A stretch of 64,000 bases of DNA from the IMG/VR virus record IMGVR_UViG_3300043410_001708, positions 32,001 to 96,000 of that record. One strand, 5' to 3'. The translations under genes were made by a program, and so were the position numbers. How positions within the stretch are numbered: the stretch's first letter is position 1; each line of letters begins with the position of its first letter. The stretch is from a virus. Shown in pieces: positions 14,461 to 59,771 of the stretch. Below the pieces are notes generated by a model. That model did not search any database. It was not told the origin of the DNA and saw only the letters and a list, made by a program, of their open reading frames with translations.

Positions 14461-14533
14461 TGGTTGCGGGTCACGGAGTTGCACCGGAACTGAGGATTAT
14501 GAGCCCACTGTGATACTATTTCACCAACCCGCT
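14461..14533 (-). tRNA. tRNA-Met(CAT), initiator-like
   Basis: cloverleaf, 1:72 mismatch, loop CTCATAA, encoded CCA. Confidence 0.8.
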
Positions 14534-14722: not shown

Positions 14723-14968
14723 TTATTCTCCGTAGATATAAGCAATATCTTCAATCTTCACTACAAAATAATCTTGCACTGTTACAGCTTTACCCCAATC
14801 TGGTTGCACCACATCACCAATCTGTAACTCAGTAACATCTGGTCCAACTGCAAGTACTTTTGCTCTATCAGGTTCTTCGGAGTGTCTTAGGATGATTCCT
14901 GAAGCGGTCTGTTTAACATTCTCAAGCCGTTCAATCAATACTTTATCGTGCAAGGGTTTAATATTCAT
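14723..14968 (-). CDS. groES: GroES-like co-chaperonin
   Basis: MNIKPLHDKVLIER..TASGIIL..VLAVGP; GAGG RBS; start reassigned to 14968. Confidence 0.9.
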   Translation of the reverse strand: MNIKPLHDKVLIERLENVKQTASGIILRHSEEPDRAKVLAVGPDVTELQIGDVVQPDWGKAVTVQDYFVVKIEDIAYIYGE

Positions 14969-14981
14969 AATGTCCTCAAAA

Positions 14982-15048
14982 TGGAGCGGTCTTCTGCTTT
15001 GCTCAGATAACACAAGGGGGTGCCTTGTATCGTACTATTACAAACCGC
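14982..15048 (-). ncRNA. D-armless tRNA-Gly-like RNA
   Basis: acceptor GCGGTTT/AGACCGC-TCCA, 9-bp central stem, T-like arm. Confidence 0.55.
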
Positions 15049-15204: not shown

Positions 15205-16632
15205 TCACAATACTTTGTAACGGTCATCCATGATGGTTTTAAGCATCACAGATTCTGGTGTAAAGGTTTCTAAGTCACCCGCCAACAGTGGTTTTACGAC
15301 TGCTGGTGAGAAACCAGATACCAATGCAGTACCAGAAGTGTCGAACTTTACTGGAGCGTTGCCGTATGCGGCATTCAAGTTCCAGAATACAACCTTTGGC
15401 AAAGTGTATCCTGCTTCTTTGTACTTACGTGCAATCATCTGCATAGCAGAGTCATCATGTCTAACGCAAGCGTTAAATTGCATGTCTGACAGAATCAATA
15501 CCATCGCTGGCATTTCTTCTTGTGGCACGCCACCTTTTACTGCTACATCAAGGATTTTTGCAAATGCCTTGTGTAGGTCGGTAGACATACCCCAATCAGA
15601 TTTAACCATTTGGTCAATCTTTTGATTGATGTTACCTTTCAAGTGCAACAATTCTGGATTGGTAGAGAAAGTTAGGAAGGTGTCCTTGAACTTGCCTTCA
15701 TTCTTATCTGCCAAGTATAGTCCCAAAGAGACTGCTACTTCCAAACAGGTTAGACCTGATTTGGAACCATAACCACCTGCAGCGCAGGTCATTGAACCAG
15801 AAACATCCACCAAAGGTAGAATGTTTGCATCGCCAACAAAGTTAGGCAAAGCCTCCCATTGTTTTTGCACCAAGTCCAATTCGGTCTTGTCGAATTTCAT
15901 GTAACCACCGATACGGCCTTTCAGCACATCGTATGGGAACACAGCACCTGCATTAACCTTAACTTCTGGATTATCACCCTTAACCAACGAAGCAACATAT
16001 GCTGCATAAGTTGGAGTGTTACGGTTAAAAGCCTTCTTGTAACGGGATGCCGCTACGGAAGGTACGTGTGAGAAATTGATGGAATCCCAGTCTTTCGCAC
16101 ACATTTGAGTTTCAACCACTTTGGTCATTTCAACCAAAGACTTACGGTAAAACTTTGGGGACATACCAAAGAACTGACGGATTTCAGCCGCTAGTTTACC
16201 TTGGCGAGGAGTCCACTTTGCAGCCAATCCATTCTTCGCACGAAGCGCATCACCCAACATAGTGAATGCTGCTGACTTCATAACATCAGAATCGAATACA
16301 AAAATGTCGTCCCAACGGCCCAATTCAGGAACCTTTGTCAACAATGCTTTTGCGGCTTCTACGTCATTCTTTTCCAAATAACGCAAGATAGTACGGAACG
16401 ATTCACGTTCACCGGCACCACCACGAGCATCACGTAACCAAGCAGCAACACGCAAAGCGAGTTCACGGTTTTCTGCCATTGCAGCTGCGAAAGCAGGCAC
16501 AATGTTTTTGCCACGGGAAGCACCTGCATTGTAGAACAAATCTACAACTGCATTAGCAGTGGACTTACGAGCCTTCATACCGTTTGCGGTACGGGCATCT
16601 TGATTAACAACGGCATCTACAAAAGTTGACAT
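15205..16632 (-). CDS. DUF2828 family TROVE/Ro60-like protein with C-terminal vWA domain
   Basis: LRDARGGAGER, GRWDD, AAKWTPR; MIDAS DVSGSM; SDMQF, VFWNL, VSGFS. Confidence 0.85.
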   Translation of the reverse strand: MSTFVDAVVNQDARTANGMKARKSTANAVVDLFYNAGASRGKNIVPAFAAAMAENRELALRVAAWLRDARGGAGERESFRTILRYLEKNDVEAAKALLTKVPELGRWDDIFVFDSDVMKSAAFTMLGDALRAKNGLAAKWTPRQGKLAAEIRQFFGMSPKFYRKSLVEMTKVVETQMCAKDWDSINFSHVPSVAASRYKKAFNRNTPTYAAYVASLVKGDNPEVKVNAGAVFPYDVLKGRIGGYMKFDKTELDLVQKQWEALPNFVGDANILPLVDVSGSMTCAAGGYGSKSGLTCLEVAVSLGLYLADKNEGKFKDTFLTFSTNPELLHLKGNINQKIDQMVKSDWGMSTDLHKAFAKILDVAVKGGVPQEEMPAMVLILSDMQFNACVRHDDSAMQMIARKYKEAGYTLPKVVFWNLNAAYGNAPVKFDTSGTALVSGFSPAVVKPLLAGDLETFTPESVMLKTIMDDRYKVL

Positions 16633-16652
16633 AACTTACTCCTCATAAAAAA

Positions 16653-16772
16653 ACAACAGAATACATTTTTTAGCGCACTACCAATTGTGCTATTCACGCC
16701 GAAGCGTAAAACAGGATTCGAACCTGTAACCTCTCCGTTATAAGCGGAAAAATTGTTTGCTGTGAGTATTCT
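16653..16772 (-). ncRNA. CAGCA-stem RNA copy 1, carrying a circularly permuted tRNA
   Basis: AGAATAC/GTATTCT stem; anticodon arm, T arm, UUCG-closed acceptor, D arm. Confidence 0.75.
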
Positions 16773-16776
16773 AAAA

Positions 16777-16932
16777 ACAACAGGTTAGCTTTCTACTTTT
16801 TGTTTACAGTGAGAAATCGAAACTCACCTTCGTTAGGACCATTTCAATAAACACCTTCAAAGGTCGAAACCTCCAGTGTTTACCATAGTTACCTAACAGT
16901 TCAGTATTATTGAATAATGCTGTAACTAACCT
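16777..16932 (-). ncRNA. CAGCA-stem RNA copy 2
   Basis: AGGTTAG/CTAACCT stem; long internal hairpin and a T-loop-like hairpin. Confidence 0.7.
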
Positions 16933-16961
16933 AAAACCTTTTCAATCTTTCAATACTGTGT

Positions 16962-17013
16962 ATTGTAACACAAAAATTTGTTGTAGTCAAGCAGTATGTT
17001 GTAAACATACCAC
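16962..17013 (-). promoter_or_regulatory. sigma70 promoter with upstream palindromic box driving the ncRNA-DUF2828 unit
   Basis: GTGGT-N6-ACAAC, N7, TTGACT-17-TACAAT. Confidence 0.65.
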
Positions 17014-17185: not shown

Positions 17186-17214
17186 ATTATATATGCTTTA
17201 CAAACAATTGTCAA
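17186..17214 (-). promoter_or_regulatory. sigma70 promoter for tRNA-Gly/Thr
   Basis: TTGACA-17-TATAAT. Confidence 0.75.
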
Positions 17215-17319: not shown

Positions 17320-17904
17320 TCACATGGCAGGTCCGTTTCCATTACGGAAACCGACCTCACCACCTTCTTCTTTGATTCGTTTCATAACATCTTCAAAAAG
17401 AATAGGACGAAAATCTGTTTGTTCAACACAAACACAATGATAACGAACATCTGGTGTGTCCAGTTCTTGACCTCCGTTCCATGTCATCATCACACGACCT
17501 GTATGAAGGTGACCGTGAATGTTTGTTCCGAAACGACCAAGACTGGCGGGATGAATTGGAATATGTGAAAGAATCATTCCGTTCATTACATGATACGCAC
17601 GAAGTTCACGGAAGTGTATTCTATATTCATCATCACGGAAGATATCGTGGTTACCACGAATAAGAACTTTATCACCGTTAAGTCTATGCATAATGCTAAG
17701 TGCTTTACGATTGATTACAACATCACCAAGATGATATACTTTATCAGTTGGCTTTACTGTTTCGTTCCAACGCTTAACCATTTCTTCATCCATTTCATTT
17801 GGATCGGTCCATGGTCTAATCTTTTCACCTGTTATGGAGTCGGTGAATCTACACACACCAGCGTGACCAAAGTGTGTGTCACTTACTAAAAATACTGATG
17901 GCAT
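17320..17904 (-). CDS. calcineurin-like metallophosphoesterase
   Basis: SDTHFGH, HLGD, GNHD, SHIP, HGHLH; start reassigned because the track ORF runs through tRNA-Arg. Confidence 0.9.
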   Translation of the reverse strand: MPSVFLVSDTHFGHAGVCRFTDSITGEKIRPWTDPNEMDEEMVKRWNETVKPTDKVYHLGDVVINRKALSIMHRLNGDKVLIRGNHDIFRDDEYRIHFRELRAYHVMNGMILSHIPIHPASLGRFGTNIHGHLHTGRVMMTWNGGQELDTPDVRYHCVCVEQTDFRPILFEDVMKRIKEEGGEVGFRNGNGPAM

Positions 17905-17922
17905 AATAAACTCCTGAAAAAA

Positions 17923-17997
17923 TGGCCCGGCGTGAGGGAATCGAACCCCCATTCGCACTTTAGAAGAATGCTGTCCTATCCATTGAACGAACGCCAG
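17923..17997 (-). tRNA. tRNA-Arg(TCT)
   Basis: cloverleaf, loop CTTCTAA. Confidence 0.9.
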
Positions 17998-18002
17998 AAA
18001 AA

Positions 18003-18443
18003 TCATACTCGGATGTATTCGTAATTAACTGTTTCTTCATTTTCTCTAAAAACAATAGCGCCGTTCTTCAAGTGAAAACGCTTTGCCATTTCAGTTTTTG
18101 GAGATAATGTCACAAATCTTTTTATGTATGGCATATTATTTTCTATGTGTGATACTGCATCAAATATAAGTGTTCCACCAGCACCTGGTGCATAACTCCA
18201 TATTGTATAAAATACCGCAATCTCTGGATCGTTTACCTTTTCAAACAATTCAGATTCTTTTGTCGGAACATTTGTCTGATAACTTACGCATGTGATTGCT
18301 AATACTTTACCATTTGTATCCCGAAGAACAAAAATATCTTTGTTATTACCTACTCTTTCCGTAGTTGGAATGTTAGGCCTGACAGGATCTTCATCCAATA
18401 AATTAAAAAAACTATCTGTGATGGATTTTATAATATGTAACAT
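18003..18443 (-). CDS. GNAT-fold protein
   Basis: AVFYTIWSYAPGAGGTLI...FVTLSP...RFHLKNGA. Confidence 0.6.
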   Translation of the reverse strand: MLHIIKSITDSFFNLLDEDPVRPNIPTTERVGNNKDIFVLRDTNGKVLAITCVSYQTNVPTKESELFEKVNDPEIAVFYTIWSYAPGAGGTLIFDAVSHIENNMPYIKRFVTLSPKTEMAKRFHLKNGAIVFRENEETVNYEYIRV

Positions 18444-18825: not shown

Positions 18826-18900
18826 TGGTGGGTCGTCAGAGAATCAAACTCTGTTCTTCCGGTTAAGAGCCGGTTGCTTCATCACTTAAGCTTACAACCC
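18826..18900 (-). tRNA. tRNA-Lys(CTT)
   Basis: cloverleaf, loop CTCTTAA. Confidence 0.88.
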
Positions 18901-18984: not shown

Positions 18985-19086
18985 ACAACAGGATAGTTTT
19001 TTTACAGTGGGAATTGAACCCACAAGGTTTGCTTAGAAGGCAAATTGCGAACCATTCGCATGTGAATTTTTTGCTGAACCTATCCT
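18985..19086 (-). ncRNA. CAGCA-stem RNA copy 3, carrying a tRNA-Arg(TCT)-like body
   Basis: AGGATAG/CTATCCT stem enclosing D-like, anticodon and T arms; no CCA. Confidence 0.75.
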
Positions 19087-19092
19087 AAAACT

Positions 19093-20155: not shown

Positions 20156-20219
20156 ACAACAGGATAGATTTTACTTTTCAAGTTACAAGTTTGAAGTATT
20201 TTATTGCTGTTACTATCCT
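20156..20219 (-). ncRNA. CAGCA-stem RNA copy 4, carrying an anticodon-like hairpin
   Basis: AGGATAG/CTATCCT stem; inner hairpin loop CTTGTAA. Confidence 0.7.
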
Positions 20220-20224
20220 AAAAA

Positions 20225-20674: not shown

Positions 20675-20738
20675 ACAACAGGATCGTTTTTGTCGCTAGA
20701 CATCCAAAAGTTAGCTTGTTTATTGCTGAACCGATCCT
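20675..20738 (-). ncRNA. CAGCA-stem RNA copy 5
   Basis: AGGATCG/CGATCCT stem (compensatory change relative to copies 3 and 4). Confidence 0.7.
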
Positions 20739-20743
20739 AAAAC

Positions 20744-21905: not shown

Positions 21906-21997
21906 TGGTACCAGCGGTGAGAATCGAACTCACTCAAGAACGCTAATCTGGCGCTAAAAGGTGTATAAGACCTCTCTGACTACCAAGTCTCGCTGGC
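21906..21997 (-). tRNA. atypical tRNA-Ile(TAT) with tiny D loop and long variable arm
   Basis: 92 nt; acceptor GCCAGCG/CGCTGGT, loop CTTATAC, T arm GTGAG-TTCGATT-CTCAC, CCA. Confidence 0.7.
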
Positions 21998-22682: not shown

Positions 22683-23216
22683 TTATTTTTTGAATCCTTG
22701 AAAAAATAATTCGGGAGTATCATTTGTTTCAAACTTATAAGAATGAAACATACTATCTATATCAAAGTTAGTACGAAAATCTTCTTCTGTAAGATTCTTG
22801 TAATATTCCCAACCTTTACCGACAGTCAGTGGACTATCTTCTGGTTTTGCATTTGATGTACCATGTTCAGGTGCACCAGTTGTCGGTACAGTAATGAAAA
22901 CTAATCCGTCTTTTTTGGTCATGCGATACATGTTTTGAAATGTTTCAACCCAAAATGGATTGTGTTCAAAACAATTACATGAACCTGTTGTATCGTATGT
23001 GCCGTCTGAATGGTCAACTAATTGACCCTCGCAAACTAAATCAACACTAGGTCCTTCAGCAACATCAACGCCAGTATAATCACAGTCTTTAAAATGACTT
23101 CTCATAGTACCATTGATATCTAAACTACCAACTTCTAAAACTTTTGCGTTATTGAAGTTTTGTGGAAATTGTTTTGACAAATTTCTAACATATTCTTGTT
23201 GTGCTGGATGTGACAT
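22683..23216 (-). CDS. class I SAM-dependent methyltransferase
   Basis: VLEVGS..YTGVD..VDLV..FEH..FITVP. Confidence 0.8.
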   Translation of the reverse strand: MSHPAQQEYVRNLSKQFPQNFNNAKVLEVGSLDINGTMRSHFKDCDYTGVDVAEGPSVDLVCEGQLVDHSDGTYDTTGSCNCFEHNPFWVETFQNMYRMTKKDGLVFITVPTTGAPEHGTSNAKPEDSPLTVGKGWEYYKNLTEEDFRTNFDIDSMFHSYKFETNDTPELFFQGFKK

Positions 23217-57845: not shown

Positions 57846-59771
57846 TTAATCATTATAATAAAAAACAACTTTCAATCCTTTTGCACCAGTACCAGCAGAA
57901 AGAATATCAACGGTGATTTCAGCATCATCAGATACCGCTGTTGTTACTAATGTTGTTGCTGTTACAGCAGTTGTGCTGGTTTTTTCTGTTGCATCTATTG
58001 TTAATTTATTTGTACCAAGAATTGTTGTACCTGACAATTTTATATCAACGTTAACTAAACCTGATGTTGATGCAACATTGAGTGTTGCTCTTGGTATAGA
58101 AGTTAATGTCAATGCAGAAGGTGCTCTGAATGATGCTCTAGCGGAACCAACTGTTAAATTTGTTGATTCATCAACAACAGAAAGAATCAACATCTCAGAA
58201 TTTGCTTTTGAGAATGCTGCGTTAGCTTGTGCTCTTGCCCATGTATCTGTACCACCACCAGAACCTGCGTTGGCTGTGTATTGTGTGGTACCATCAGCAA
58301 ATGTTAATCCGTTGGCGGTTGAACCCGTTATCCTTATCATACCTGAATAAACGTTACCAACAACACCCAAACCACCAGTAATTTGTACAGCACCACTTGT
58401 GTTTGAAACAGCAGTGTTTGCACTTGTTACTACCAAATTTCCTGTTATTACAGTATTACCTGTAACTGTTCCACCAACGTTTGCACTTAAAGAATTATTT
58501 GCTCTGGTGTAGGCCGCATTTGCTTGTACAAAAGCCGCATTTGATTGTGCTCTAGCAAATGTATCCGGTACGTTGGCTGTGTATTGTGTGGTACCATCAG
58601 CAAATGTTAATCCATTCGCAGTTGAACCGGTTATTACAATTAAACCTGAATATAAATTACCAACAACACCTAAACCACCAGTAATTGTCAATGCACCGCT
58701 TGTATTTGATATGGCCGTGGTTGTATTTGTAACCACCAAGTTGCCGGTAATTACTGTATTGCCTGTTATGGTACCACCAGATTTTGGTAATGCATTGTTG
58801 GCTGTAGTAAAAGCACCATTGGCAAATGATGCTGCTGAGTTGGCAGTTAGAAAGGCACCATTAGCAAAACTTGCTGCTGAATTTGCTGTAGAATAAGCTG
58901 CGTTGGAATTATTTCTTACCCAAGAATCGGTAGCATTATTAGCAGTATTGTAGGCCGCATTGGCTCTATCGAAAGCACCGTTTGCAGTATCTCTAGCCCA
59001 CGAATCGGATACTGAACCTCCACCACTATTTGCGGTATTGTATGCTGCATTAGCACGGTCAAAAGCTGAATTGGCAAAATTTTGAGCTAATGTGATATTT
59101 GTATTTTGCGTTAAGTCAACACCTTGAATAGTTATGGTATTAGACGATGCACTATTGGCCATCAAAAAAGCACCATTAGCAAAATCAGCTGCTGAGTTGG
59201 CTGTTATAAAGGCACTATTAGCAAATGATTGTGCTGATGCAATATTAGTGTTCTGTGTCGAATCAACACCTTGAGTAACTACTGTATTTGATGAAGCACT
59301 ATTAGCCACCAAGAAGGCGCCATTGGCAAATAAACCTGCTGAGTTTGCAGTATCATAAGCATTATTGGCCTGTGTTCTTACCCATGAATCGGTAGCATTA
59401 TTAGCGGTATTATAAGCCGCATTAGCTCTATCAAAAGCACCATTTGCAAATAAACCTGCTGAGTTTGCAGTGTCATAGGCATTGTTTGCTTGTGTTCTTA
59501 CCCATGAATCGGTAGCATTATTAGCTGTGTTGTATGCTGCATTTGCTCTATCAAAAGCACCGTTAGCAAAAGAGGCTGCTGAATTTGCAGTAATGAATGC
59601 TGCATTAGATGTATCTCTAGCCCATGAGTCTGCACCGCCACCAGTATTTGCTTGTGAAAAAGCAGCATTAGCCTGTGCAAACGCAGCATTAGCCTTTGCG
59701 TATGCAGAAGGTACCAAAGAAGAAAAATCTTTAGTTGAATCTAGTCTTGATGGAGGTACTTGTGTTGACAT
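57846..59771 (-). CDS. Ala/Asn-repeat coiled-coil fibre protein
   Basis: ANSA..FANGAF..AN repeats; 120-bp tandem duplication. Confidence 0.75.
   Translation of the reverse strand: MSTQVPPSRLDSTKDFSSLVPSAYAKANAAFAQANAAFSQANTGGGADSWARDTSNAAFITANSAASFANGAFDRANAAYNTANNATDSWVRTQANNAYDTANSAGLFANGAFDRANAAYNTANNATDSWVRTQANNAYDTANSAGLFANGAFLVANSASSNTVVTQGVDSTQNTNIASAQSFANSAFITANSAADFANGAFLMANSASSNTITIQGVDLTQNTNITLAQNFANSAFDRANAAYNTANSGGGSVSDSWARDTANGAFDRANAAYNTANNATDSWVRNNSNAAYSTANSAASFANGAFLTANSAASFANGAFTTANNALPKSGGTITGNTVITGNLVVTNTTTAISNTSGALTITGGLGVVGNLYSGLIVITGSTANGLTFADGTTQYTANVPDTFARAQSNAAFVQANAAYTRANNSLSANVGGTVTGNTVITGNLVVTSANTAVSNTSGAVQITGGLGVVGNVYSGMIRITGSTANGLTFADGTTQYTANAGSGGGTDTWARAQANAAFSKANSEMLILSVVDESTNLTVGSARASFRAPSALTLTSIPRATLNVASTSGLVNVDIKLSGTTILGTNKLTIDATEKTSTTAVTATTLVTTAVSDDAEITVDILSAGTGAKGLKVVFYYND

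What the first reader, a model, noticed from the sequence alone, without database searches (positions are those of the whole stretch)
16653..16772. Circularly permuted tRNA with a UUCG-capped acceptor stem immediately 5' of the DUF2828 gene
Seen on the minus strand, in this order: anticodon hairpin TCCG-CTTATAA-CGGA (UAU), variable region GAGGTT, T arm ACAGG-TTCGAAT-CCTGT, acceptor 3' strand TTTACGC, TTCG loop, acceptor 5' strand GCGTGAA, TA, and D arm GCAC-AATTGGTA-GTGC. Established: YrlA RNAs have the T arm / closed acceptor / D arm order, with the Ro-binding stem replacing the anticodon arm. Here an anticodon arm is retained as well. Inference: this is a non-chargeable full tRNA mimic, either a decoy or a cis-regulator of the gene that starts 20 nt downstream.
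Basis: partly seen in the sequence, partly recalled or inferred. Interest (0 to 1): 0.82.

Follow-up and report, generated by a model that had tools for sequence, protein, structure and literature searches.

The report
Phage Y RNA mimicking whole tRNA
A 119-nt phage RNA gene folds as a complete but rearranged, unchargeable tRNA held on a conserved stem, and is most likely the partner RNA of the neighbouring Ro60-shaped protein, a protein that in a related coliphage helps the phage escape a bacterial defence.

Summary
Window 16655-16773(-) encodes, in order, an anticodon-type hairpin, a variable region, a T arm, a 7-bp acceptor stem closed by UUCG, U8-A9 and a D arm. Re-permuted, the module is called tRNA-Ile(UAU) by ARAGORN. 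Rfam YrlA matches below threshold (36.5 vs 69 bits). All five helices covary across 122 distinct relatives (95% paired vs 64% shuffled). The downstream DUF2828+DUF7788 protein folds as a Ro60 ring: the top 12 PDB matches are all Ro60, over the full length. 71 of 72 related loci carry such framed RNAs just upstream of the gene. The window has five of them.

Best reading: a YrlA-class Y RNA of a phage Ro60-like particle, differing from YrlA by keeping an anticodon arm. That arm has a conserved loop frame (C32 U33 ... A37 A38) and a hypervariable triplet. A purely cis-regulatory role is unlikely, and a functional permuted tRNA gene very unlikely.

Rfam's threshold does not detect the family, it is unannotated in the phage records checked (including Felix O1), and no paper searched describes it. 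This scan has noted the same family in at least 119 other genomes. New variant of a known kind.

The parts
16655..16773 (-). Whole framed unit (119 nt): YrlA-class Y RNA with a permuted, complete tRNA-like module
   Evidence: (133.5 bits with model R1)
16766..16773 (-). Basal stem, 5' strand (UAGAAUAC); pairs with 16657-16664
   Evidence: All 8 pairs show compensatory changes, 96.7% of cells paired; the first four pairs UAGG/CCUG are conserved in sequence
16757..16762 (-). Invariant single-stranded CAGCAA motif just above the basal stem (candidate protein-contact site)
   Evidence: Invariant in alignment A1; present in the units of all module types and in mycobacteriophage Douge
16733..16749 (-). 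Anticodon-type arm UUCCG-CUUAUAA-CGGAG; 'anticodon' UAU at 16740-16742
   Evidence: All 5 pairs have compensatory changes; loop logo C32 40/52, U33 46/52, A37 46/52, A38 47/52 with 24 different triplets
16728..16732 (-). Variable region AGGUU; its last base U48 matches A15 (Levitt-type pair)
   Evidence: 33/51 G15:C48 or A15:U48 vs 19.4 in shuffles
16711..16727 (-). T arm ACAGG-UUCGAAU-CCUGU
   Evidence: 99.3% paired; stem changes exactly compensatory
16693..16710 (-). Acceptor-like 7-bp stem closed by UUCG (16700-16703); no free 3' end, no CCA
   Evidence: all 7 pairs with compensatory changes; closing loop variable among relatives
16675..16692 (-). U8-A9 linker and D arm GCAC-AAUUGGUA-GUGC (A14, A15, G18-G19)
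16657..16674 (-). G26, A-rich linker (CUAAAAAAU) and basal stem 3' strand GUAUUCUG; followed by UU G U7
16779..16933 (-). Second framed unit (155 nt) directly upstream, same frame, large module of unknown kind
   Evidence: conserved in related loci
16962..16990 (-). Sigma-70-like promoter TTGACT-17-TACAAT with TG extension, upstream of both units
   Evidence: consensus match only; no terminator-like site on this strand before the gene
15205..16632 (-). DUF2828+DUF7788 gene (475 aa): Ro60-fold ring protein with vWA/MIDAS; RBS GAGGAG at 16639-16644
18987..19087 (-). Third framed unit: D arm, anticodon arm (CUUCUAA) and T arm in natural order; the framed stem stands in place of the acceptor
   Evidence: (39.5 bits); Rfam tRNA 35.8 bits at 18999-19067
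20158..20220 (-). Fourth framed unit (63 nt), a single hairpin with loop CUUGUAA
20677..20739 (-). Fifth framed unit (63 nt), hairpin module

Best explanation
The element is a noncoding RNA gene of the Y RNA class, closest to the tRNA-like YrlA RNAs. Shown here: its two ends form a conserved, covarying basal stem followed by an invariant CAGCAA. On this stem sits a tRNA-shaped module whose strand order is anticodon arm, variable region, T arm, closed acceptor, D arm, so it has no 3' end to charge. The adjacent gene encodes a Ro60-fold ring protein, and RNA and gene travel together across very different phages. Inferred: the basal stem and CAGCAA are the binding site of that protein, as Y RNA stems are for Ro60. 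The two gene-proximal units are transcribed from the promoter at 16990-16962, probably together with the gene, and then trimmed. The tRNA-shaped module serves as a handle that engages a tRNA-recognising factor (a tRNA enzyme or a host tRNA-directed nuclease). The particle thereby acts on the tRNA/RNA pool during infection, plausibly as counter-defence. The loop frame of the anticodon arm is constrained while its triplet is free or diversifying. This fits recognition of loop shape, or tuning to different targets, rather than decoding.
For: RNA: arms present. Rfam YrlA partial match. Re-permuted module called tRNA-Ile(UAU). Five-helix model R1 finds the family, and covariation is strong in every helix. 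tRNA tertiary signatures: U8 49/51, A14 48/51, G18-G19 50/51, Levitt-type 15:48 33/51 vs 19.4.
Protein: Pfam DUF2828+DUF7788. Invariant DxSxS MIDAS motif. AF2 model pLDDT 93, pTM 0.91. Top 12 Foldseek PDB matches are all Ro60 (Xenopus, human, Deinococcus Rsr, Thermus phage phiLo), full length, TM 0.41-0.63, E 3e-8 to 1.5e-6; the next matches are only vWA domains at TM about 0.24. In the profile-vs-PDB search the four best hits are Ro60/TROVE at marginal E.
Association: 71/72 protein-selected loci have framed units within 1.5 kb upstream. In RNA-selected loci, 40/40 units that share a stretch with the gene are on its strand. 7/10 large contigs have the gene elsewhere, and the 3 without it are 24-60% complete. 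The same frame lies next to the 'Ro-like RNA binding protein' of mycobacteriophage Douge, and also occurs in Shigella, Escherichia, Listeria, Aeromonas and Synechococcus phages.
Literature: YrlA RNAs lie next to Ro60 in bacteria and phages and are handled by tRNA enzymes (PMC4201824). Thermus phage Ro60 binds two upstream Y-like RNAs (PMC12135203). Bas63 gp130 is Ro60-like and counters the ppl defence (10.1101/2024.10.10.617714).
Against: No binding, expression or end-mapping data exist for this RNA or this protein family; binding is inferred from co-occurrence and analogy. The Rfam YrlA score is well below gathering (36.5 vs 69), and the frame (UAGG.../CAGCAA/...CCUGUU) is not the published Ro-binding helix. 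Sequence identity to Ro60 is 13-17%, and Pfam TROVE does not match. Covariation was counted on an alignment fitted to the model, and many loci were collected with a pattern that fixes the T loop, CAGCAA and CCUGUU, so those parts are conserved by selection of the sample. The functional step (handle, decoy or counter-defence) is untested. That gp130 of Bas63 is the ortholog is inferred from the position and annotation of Felixounavirus homologs; I did not check the Bas63 record.
Confidence: 0.8

Rival explanations
1. The framed stems are processing scaffolds only (for example RNase III-type stems that release the modules from the polycistronic tRNA/sRNA transcript). The modules would then act without the Ro-like protein.
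For: Units are packed 5-6 nt apart in tandem and lie within tRNA arrays. End-to-end stems flanking stable RNAs are classic processing sites (established knowledge).
Against: The frame has sequence-conserved parts (UAGG/CCUG, CAGCAA, an A-rich strand) kept from actinobacterial to proteobacterial and cyanobacterial phages. These parts follow the phage-encoded protein rather than the host. Host RNase sites would not be expected to co-occur with one phage gene.
Confidence: 0.08
2. The element is chiefly a cis-acting leader that controls the downstream gene: attenuation, or translational autoregulation by the protein binding next to the RBS.
For: In the 80 closest loci the last unit ends about 20 nt before the start codon, followed by a U-run and the RBS. 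There is no separate promoter between the unit and the gene.
Against: The gene-proximal unit can be of any module type. Homologous units lie downstream of the gene or inside tRNA clusters at 0.5-9 kb. The window has three more units 2.4-4 kb away. Full tRNA tertiary signatures are not needed for an attenuator. Autoregulation could still be a side function.
Confidence: 0.07
3. It is a true circularly permuted tRNA gene whose transcript is rejoined at position 26/27 and opened at the acceptor to give a decoding tRNA-Ile(UAU).
For: All tRNA parts are present, and the re-permuted sequence passes ARAGORN. RNA ligase RtcB is encoded near the locus in a Listeria phage. Permuted tRNA genes exist in some algae and archaea (my own knowledge, not checked here).
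Against: The acceptor is closed by loops as short as 3 nt, with no discriminator, CCA or leader. The triplet is the fastest-changing part and includes UCA. Relatives place the breakpoint elsewhere or lack an anticodon arm. The conserved basal stem and CAGCAA have no role in such a pathway.
Confidence: 0.02
4. It is a decaying tRNA-derived relic or a mobile-element remnant without function.
For: It lies at the edge of a large tRNA array.
Against: Compensatory changes occur in 27/29 pairs across 122 distinct sequences. The tertiary nucleotides are conserved. It is not similar to any of the phage's own tRNAs beyond background. The stem arms differ between copies in one genome, as in RNAs and not as in terminal inverted repeats.
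Confidence: 0.01

Closest known systems
YrlA, the tRNA-like Y RNA of bacterial and mycobacteriophage Ro60/Rsr (Rfam RF02553; Chen et al. 2014, PMC4201824)
   Same: The ends pair in a long stem. The module order is T arm, closed acceptor, D arm, with tRNA tertiary nucleotides including the G15:C48 or A15:U48 alternative. It is encoded beside a Ro60-type gene, often with further Y RNAs in tandem.
   Different: Here a separate anticodon-type hairpin with a tRNA-like 7-nt loop sits between the stem and the variable region, so the mimic is a complete tRNA. The stem carries a different conserved frame (UAGG / CAGCAA / A-rich / CCUGUU). The score is half of Rfam's threshold. The protein partner is the DUF2828+DUF7788 branch, not Pfam TROVE.
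Thermus phage phiLo Ro60 with Yrl1/Yrl2 (PMC12135203; PDB 9KOP, 9L5Y)
   Same: A phage-encoded Ro60 ring with two Y-like RNA genes directly upstream of the gene, and binding shown in vitro. It is among the best structural matches of the window's protein.
   Different: Yrl1/Yrl2 are described as stem-bulge-stem RNAs with a CGAA motif, and no tRNA-like module is reported. The protein is a TROVE-domain protein.
Bas63 (Felixounavirus) gp130, Ro60-like counter of the ppl defence system (bioRxiv 10.1101/2024.10.10.617714)
   Same: A Ro60-shaped phage protein encoded directly upstream of a tRNA array. Felixounavirus homologs are 39% identical to the window's protein and have a framed permuted-tRNA unit in the array.
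   Different: The authors only guessed that some annotated tRNA genes might be Y RNAs. The unit found here lies in an unannotated gap. I inferred but did not check that gp130 is the ortholog.
Deinococcus radiodurans Yrn1 (Chen et al. 2014)
   Same: Said to be modelled with a potential anticodon arm of 5 bp, and it tethers Ro60 (Rsr) to PNPase.
   Different: Its loop has 6 nt, it has no V region or full D arm, and its orientation differs. The window's RNA has all arms and a canonical 7-nt loop.
Circularly permuted tRNA genes (red alga Cyanidioschyzon and some archaea; my own knowledge, not checked here)
   Same: The 3' part of the tRNA is encoded before the 5' part.
   Different: Those are processed through a circular intermediate into normal, chargeable tRNAs. 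Here the acceptor is sealed by a short loop, and the ends form a conserved protein-associated stem.

Membership tests
YrlA / Y RNA-like (Rfam RF02553) | Score at or above Rfam's gathering threshold (69 bits) | tested here: not met
   36.5 bits at 16647-16759(-). No YrlA match at gathering in 18 related loci, including mycobacteriophage Douge; Douge scores 32.4 bits.
YrlA / Y RNA-like (Rfam RF02553) | Module order T arm, closed acceptor stem, D arm, with tRNA-like tertiary nucleotides | tested here: met
YrlA / Y RNA-like (Rfam RF02553) | 5' and 3' ends pair in a long stem that takes the place of the anticodon arm | tested here: inconclusive
   The end-to-end stem is present and covaries, but it does not replace the anticodon arm: a separate anticodon-type hairpin is kept. 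Some relatives have the plain YrlA layout.
Y RNA (functional class) | Encoded next to, and bound by, a Ro60 protein | tested here: inconclusive
   The adjacency and co-occurrence part is met. Binding cannot be tested with these tools.
Y RNA (functional class) | Published Ro-binding helix (conserved bulged helix; CGAA-type motif) | tested here: not met
   The frame is UAGG.../CAGCAA/...CCUGUU. Its resemblance to the CGAA motif of PMC12135203 is only a lead.
Ro60 / TROVE proteins | HEAT-repeat ring plus C-terminal vWA domain with MIDAS | tested here: met
   AF2 model pLDDT 93. Full-length Foldseek matches to 12 Ro60 chains. Invariant DxSxS at D276, S278, S280.
Ro60 / TROVE proteins | Match to Pfam TROVE (PF05731) or sequence-level homology to solved Ro60 | tested here: not met
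   Pfam gives DUF2828 and DUF7788 only. phmmer vs PDB finds nothing. The profile search gives E 0.045-0.1, restricted to the MIDAS region.
tRNA (decoding) | Free acceptor end with discriminator and CCA (encoded or addable); detected by tRNA finders | tested here: not met
   Not called by ARAGORN or by Rfam tRNA at gathering (24.2 bits). The acceptor is closed by UUCG.
Permuted tRNA genes | Processing signals that allow circularisation and opening at the acceptor (leader, trailer, bulge-helix-bulge) | tested here: not met
   Closing loops of 3-7 nt without leader or trailer. The flanks form the conserved framed stem instead.

The most novel reading that the evidence does not exclude
The framed RNAs are a display system. 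The Ro60-like ring holds a conserved handle, and each RNA presents a tRNA or anticodon-loop look-alike whose triplet evolves fast. Together they form a panel of baits that capture or misdirect host nucleases and other defence proteins aimed at tRNA anticodon loops, or hand them to a Ro-associated exonuclease. This would complement the phage's own replacement tRNA set.
Probability: 0.25. Interest if true: 0.85.

Novelty: new variant of a known kind. Interest (0 to 1): 0.62.

Why it matters
What the tRNA-like domain of bacterial Y RNAs is for remains open. This phage branch offers a sharper version of the question. The mimic is a whole tRNA with a constrained anticodon-loop frame and a free triplet. 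It is displayed in several layouts on one conserved handle and sits inside phage tRNA arrays that are themselves thought to counter tRNA-targeting defences.

It also supplies concrete candidate RNA partners for the Ro60-like protein that the Bas63 study tied to escape from the ppl system. Those candidates occur in easily handled phages: Felix O1 and other Felixounaviruses, Shigella phage Sf14, Listeria P100-type phages and mycobacteriophages.

Practically, these genes are missed by tRNA finders and by Rfam's thresholds. In phage records they are often left blank or covered by spurious small ORFs.

Tried and rejected
- Megablast of the locus against cultured phages found nothing.
- phmmer of the protein against PDB found nothing.
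- The word-indexed protein search returned only close, unnamed relatives.
- A literature search for DUF2828 gave only unrelated plant and animal papers.
- The supplements of Chen et al. 2014 and the Sim et al. 2020 review are not held, so I could not see which phage YrlA RNAs were listed or drawn.
- The MFE z-score of the single sequence is unconvincing on its own.
- The possible AGC/GCU closing helix in the MFE fold was dropped, because its partner column is position 26 (G or A) in relatives.
- The idea that the module is a recent copy of one of the phage's tRNAs was rejected: identity is at the tRNA-tRNA background.
- My regex also picked two plus-strand stretches (335-525 and 58585-58767). 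They lack the UAGG start and look like chance.
- My simple parser left 55 of 131 T-loop units without an assigned anticodon-type hairpin and 11 unparsed, so the class counts are lower bounds.
- Vibrio phage phi-ST2 showed no unit within 2.5 kb of its gene.

Full report
**1. What is in the sequence**

On the minus strand, 16773 to 16655 reads: UAGAAUAC, UCA, CAGCAA, a short U-rich linker, UUCCG-CUUAUAA-CGGAG, AGGUU, ACAGG-UUCGAAU-CCUGU, UUUACGC-UUCG-GCGUGAA, UA, GCAC-AAUUGGUA-GUGC, G, CUAAAAAAU, GUAUUCUG, UU.

The MFE fold gives this enclosing stem and the four arms. The energy z-score alone is weak (-1.72).

The element is not called by ARAGORN or by Rfam's tRNA model at threshold. It lies at the 3' end of an array of about 30 tRNA genes, 22 nt before the ATG of a 475-aa gene.

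**2. Is it a tRNA in permuted order?**

I cut the module at the closing loop and rejoined it at the 26/27 junction, adding an ACCA tail. ARAGORN then calls it tRNA-Ile(UAU). Relatives treated the same way give Phe(GAA), Ser(UGA) and SeC(UCA). Rfam's YrlA model matches 16647-16759 at 36.5 bits. That is locally significant but half of the gathering score, and the alignment treats the anticodon-type hairpin as an insertion.

**3. The neighbouring protein**

- Pfam finds DUF2828 and DUF7788, and no TROVE.
- Plain sequence search against PDB finds nothing.
- A profile of 75 diverse relatives puts four Ro60/TROVE entries on top, at marginal E-values and only around the MIDAS motif.
- The AlphaFold model is confident (pLDDT 93.1, pTM 0.91).
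- Its 12 best PDB matches are all Ro60: Xenopus, human, Deinococcus Rsr and Thermus phage phiLo. They align over the full length with TM 0.41-0.63 at 13-17% identity. Below them come only isolated vWA domains at TM about 0.24.

So the protein is a divergent Ro60-type ring with an invariant DxSxS site. The family is large: 6033 cluster representatives at E<=1e-3 and 701 cultured-phage records. In those records annotators call it 'RNA-binding protein', 'vWFA protein' or, in mycobacteriophages, 'Ro-like RNA binding protein'.

**4. The RNA family**

The upstream regions of 80 related viral contigs share one frame: UUUU-UAGG-nnnn(n), CAGCAA, a module, an A-rich stretch, nnnn-CCUG-UUG. The n positions are complementary and differ from copy to copy.

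The modules differ widely. They include tRNA-like modules, single hairpins of 50-65 nt, and large modules of 150-240 nt. Two to four units usually lie head to tail, 5-6 nt apart. 71 of 72 loci with enough upstream sequence have at least one unit within 1.5 kb of the gene.

Together with the first set this gave 131 distinct tRNA-like framed units.

The window itself has five units, all on the minus strand:
- 16655-16773, the finding;
- 16779-16933, with a large module;
- 18987-19087, with D arm, anticodon arm and T arm in natural order and the framed stem in place of the acceptor;
- 20158-20220 and 20677-20739, with hairpin modules.

**5. Covariation**

I aligned 17 units of the window's type (A1). 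The five-helix structure fits them with one mismatch and three gap artefacts. I built model R1 from this alignment. It finds the window's unit at 133.5 bits and relatives down to distant phages.

On 122 distinct matches:
- 95.1% of cells are paired, vs 63.7% in shuffles (0 of 500 reach it) and 35-48% when partners are slid;
- 27 of 29 pairs show compensatory changes;
- per helix: basal stem 96.7% paired, anticodon-type arm 87.2%, T arm 99.3%, acceptor 94.3%, D arm 95.0%.

Caveats: the alignment is fitted to the model, the sequences are related, and the collecting pattern fixed the T loop, CAGCAA and CCUGUU. The stems were not part of any pattern.

tRNA tertiary signatures are also kept: U8 in 49/51, A14 in 48/51, G18-G19 in 50/51, purine 26 in 45/51, and a Levitt-type 15:48 combination in 33/51 vs 19.4 expected (0 of 5000 shuffles).

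**6. The anticodon-type arm**

Of the 131 units, 52 have a 4-5-bp stem with a 7-nt loop just 5' of the variable region, as in the window. Another 13 have such a hairpin after the D arm instead, so the breakpoint of the permutation differs. The others have none by my parser or were not parsed.

In the 52, the loop reads C32 (40), U33 (46), A37 (46), A38 (47), while positions 34-36 show 24 different triplets. Among pairs of units that differ at 1-3 of 34 core positions, 56% of the substitutions fall in those three positions, against 9% if spread evenly. The remaining changes are almost all matched changes on both sides of the T stem (pairs are not independent events).

So the loop's frame is constrained as in real tRNAs, while the triplet is unconstrained or diversifying. 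This is the opposite of a decoding tRNA. The module is not a recent copy of any of the phage's own tRNAs.

**7. Link between RNA and protein**

Among loci collected by the RNA pattern alone, 36 of 120 hold the gene within the fetched stretch. All 40 units there are on the gene's strand, and 35 are upstream of it. Of ten large contigs without the gene in the stretch, seven have a homolog elsewhere on the contig. The three without are 24-60% complete, and both contigs that are at least 90% complete have it.

The frame also occurs next to the gene or in the adjoining tRNA array in cultured phages of very different hosts:
- Mycobacterium phage Douge, just downstream of the gene, with the plain YrlA layout;
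- Shigella phage Sf14 and Escherichia phage warpig, in a gap of the tRNA array;
- Listeria phage cka15 and Aeromonas phage LAh_8, with tandem units upstream of the gene;
- Synechococcus phage BUCT-ZZ01.

The 129-nt warpig unit is present in 229 records, including Felix O1. It is almost always unannotated or overlaid by 'hypothetical protein' calls.

**8. Expression signals**

A sigma-70-like promoter with an extended -10 (16990-16962) precedes the two gene-proximal units. No terminator-like site on that strand separates them from the gene. The unit's 3' stem is followed by UUG and a run of U, then the RBS. Co-transcription with the gene followed by processing is therefore the simplest reading. 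This is inferred.

**9. What is known**

- Chen et al. 2014 reported YrlA-type RNAs next to Ro60 in more than 250 bacteria and phages. They showed that tRNA enzymes act on these RNAs, and they describe an anticodon-like arm only for Deinococcus Yrn1, with a 6-nt loop.
- A 2025 paper solved a Thermus phage Ro60 and showed it binds two upstream Y-like RNAs.
- The PhageMaP preprint found that Bas63 gp130, a Ro60-like protein encoded just before the tRNA array, counters the ppl defence. Its authors guessed that some tRNA genes might be Y RNAs.
- No paper in the library links DUF2828 to these RNAs.
- Rfam's curated threshold detects none of 18 related loci tested.
- Other agents of this scan have described the same 'CAGCAA handle' family in at least 119 other genomes and reached the same reading. 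Notes on this genome list the same five units. I had found the frame and the window's five units before seeing those notes.

**10. Verdict**

A purely cis-regulatory role is unlikely, a functional permuted tRNA gene very unlikely, and a relic is excluded. The function of the particle is not shown. A role in the conflict over tRNAs (bait, tether or repair platform) is the most plausible and is directly testable in Felixounaviruses. The host of this particular phage is unknown; it is a distant T4-like myovirus.

Noticed in passing
window 16779-16933 (-): A framed unit with a 155-nt module of unknown kind. It includes a conserved hairpin (GGUGAGUUUCGAUUUCUCAC) and CUGGAG...UUUGAAGGUG motifs, is conserved in many related loci, and has no Rfam match.
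   Followed up: partly
L010:1240-1416, L026:1276-1482, L055:1204-1416 and others: A further class of framed units (180-240 nt) that ends in CAUCCAGUU and contains ...AUAGGG...CCAGAAAAUAAAUUAC.... Its module is unidentified.
   Followed up: no
window 21906-21997 (-): ARAGORN calls a 92-nt tRNA-Ile(UAU) with an encoded CCA and a long extra arm. Rfam's tRNA model does not report it at threshold. It may be an unusual type-II-like tRNA with a UAU anticodon.
   Followed up: partly
window 18829-18900 (-) and 14464-14533 (-): Rfam tRNA matches (49.7 and 33.4 bits) that ARAGORN does not call; atypical tRNAs or further mimics.
   Followed up: no
window 17320-18006 (-), 22683-23216 (-), 14723-15013 (-): A phosphoesterase (phrog_547) lies inside the tRNA array, with its ORF start overlapping a tRNA-Arg call. 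A SAM-dependent methyltransferase lies at the head of the array, and a GroES-like co-chaperonin just after the Ro-like gene.
   Followed up: partly
window 17186-17214 (-): A perfect sigma-70 consensus promoter (TTGACA-17-TATAAT, 12/12) upstream of tRNA-Gly and tRNA-Thr.
   Followed up: no
G004:C1:114278-115267 and 116401-116793 (contig of L108): The Ro-like gene matches in two pieces about 1.1 kb apart on the same strand. This may be an intervening element (an intron or homing endonuclease) or a split gene.
   Followed up: no
L206 (Listeria phage cka15) 5352-6506: An RtcB-type 'tRNA splicing ligase' lies 1.3 kb downstream of the Ro-like gene, echoing the bacterial rsr-yrlA-rtcBA arrangement.
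   Followed up: no
G003, G005, G007 (contigs of L102, L142, L158): These contigs carry framed tRNA-like units, but their only homolog of the protein is very distant (26-27% identity, open frames of 560-570 aa). It is possibly a different Ro60 branch using the same handle.
   Followed up: no
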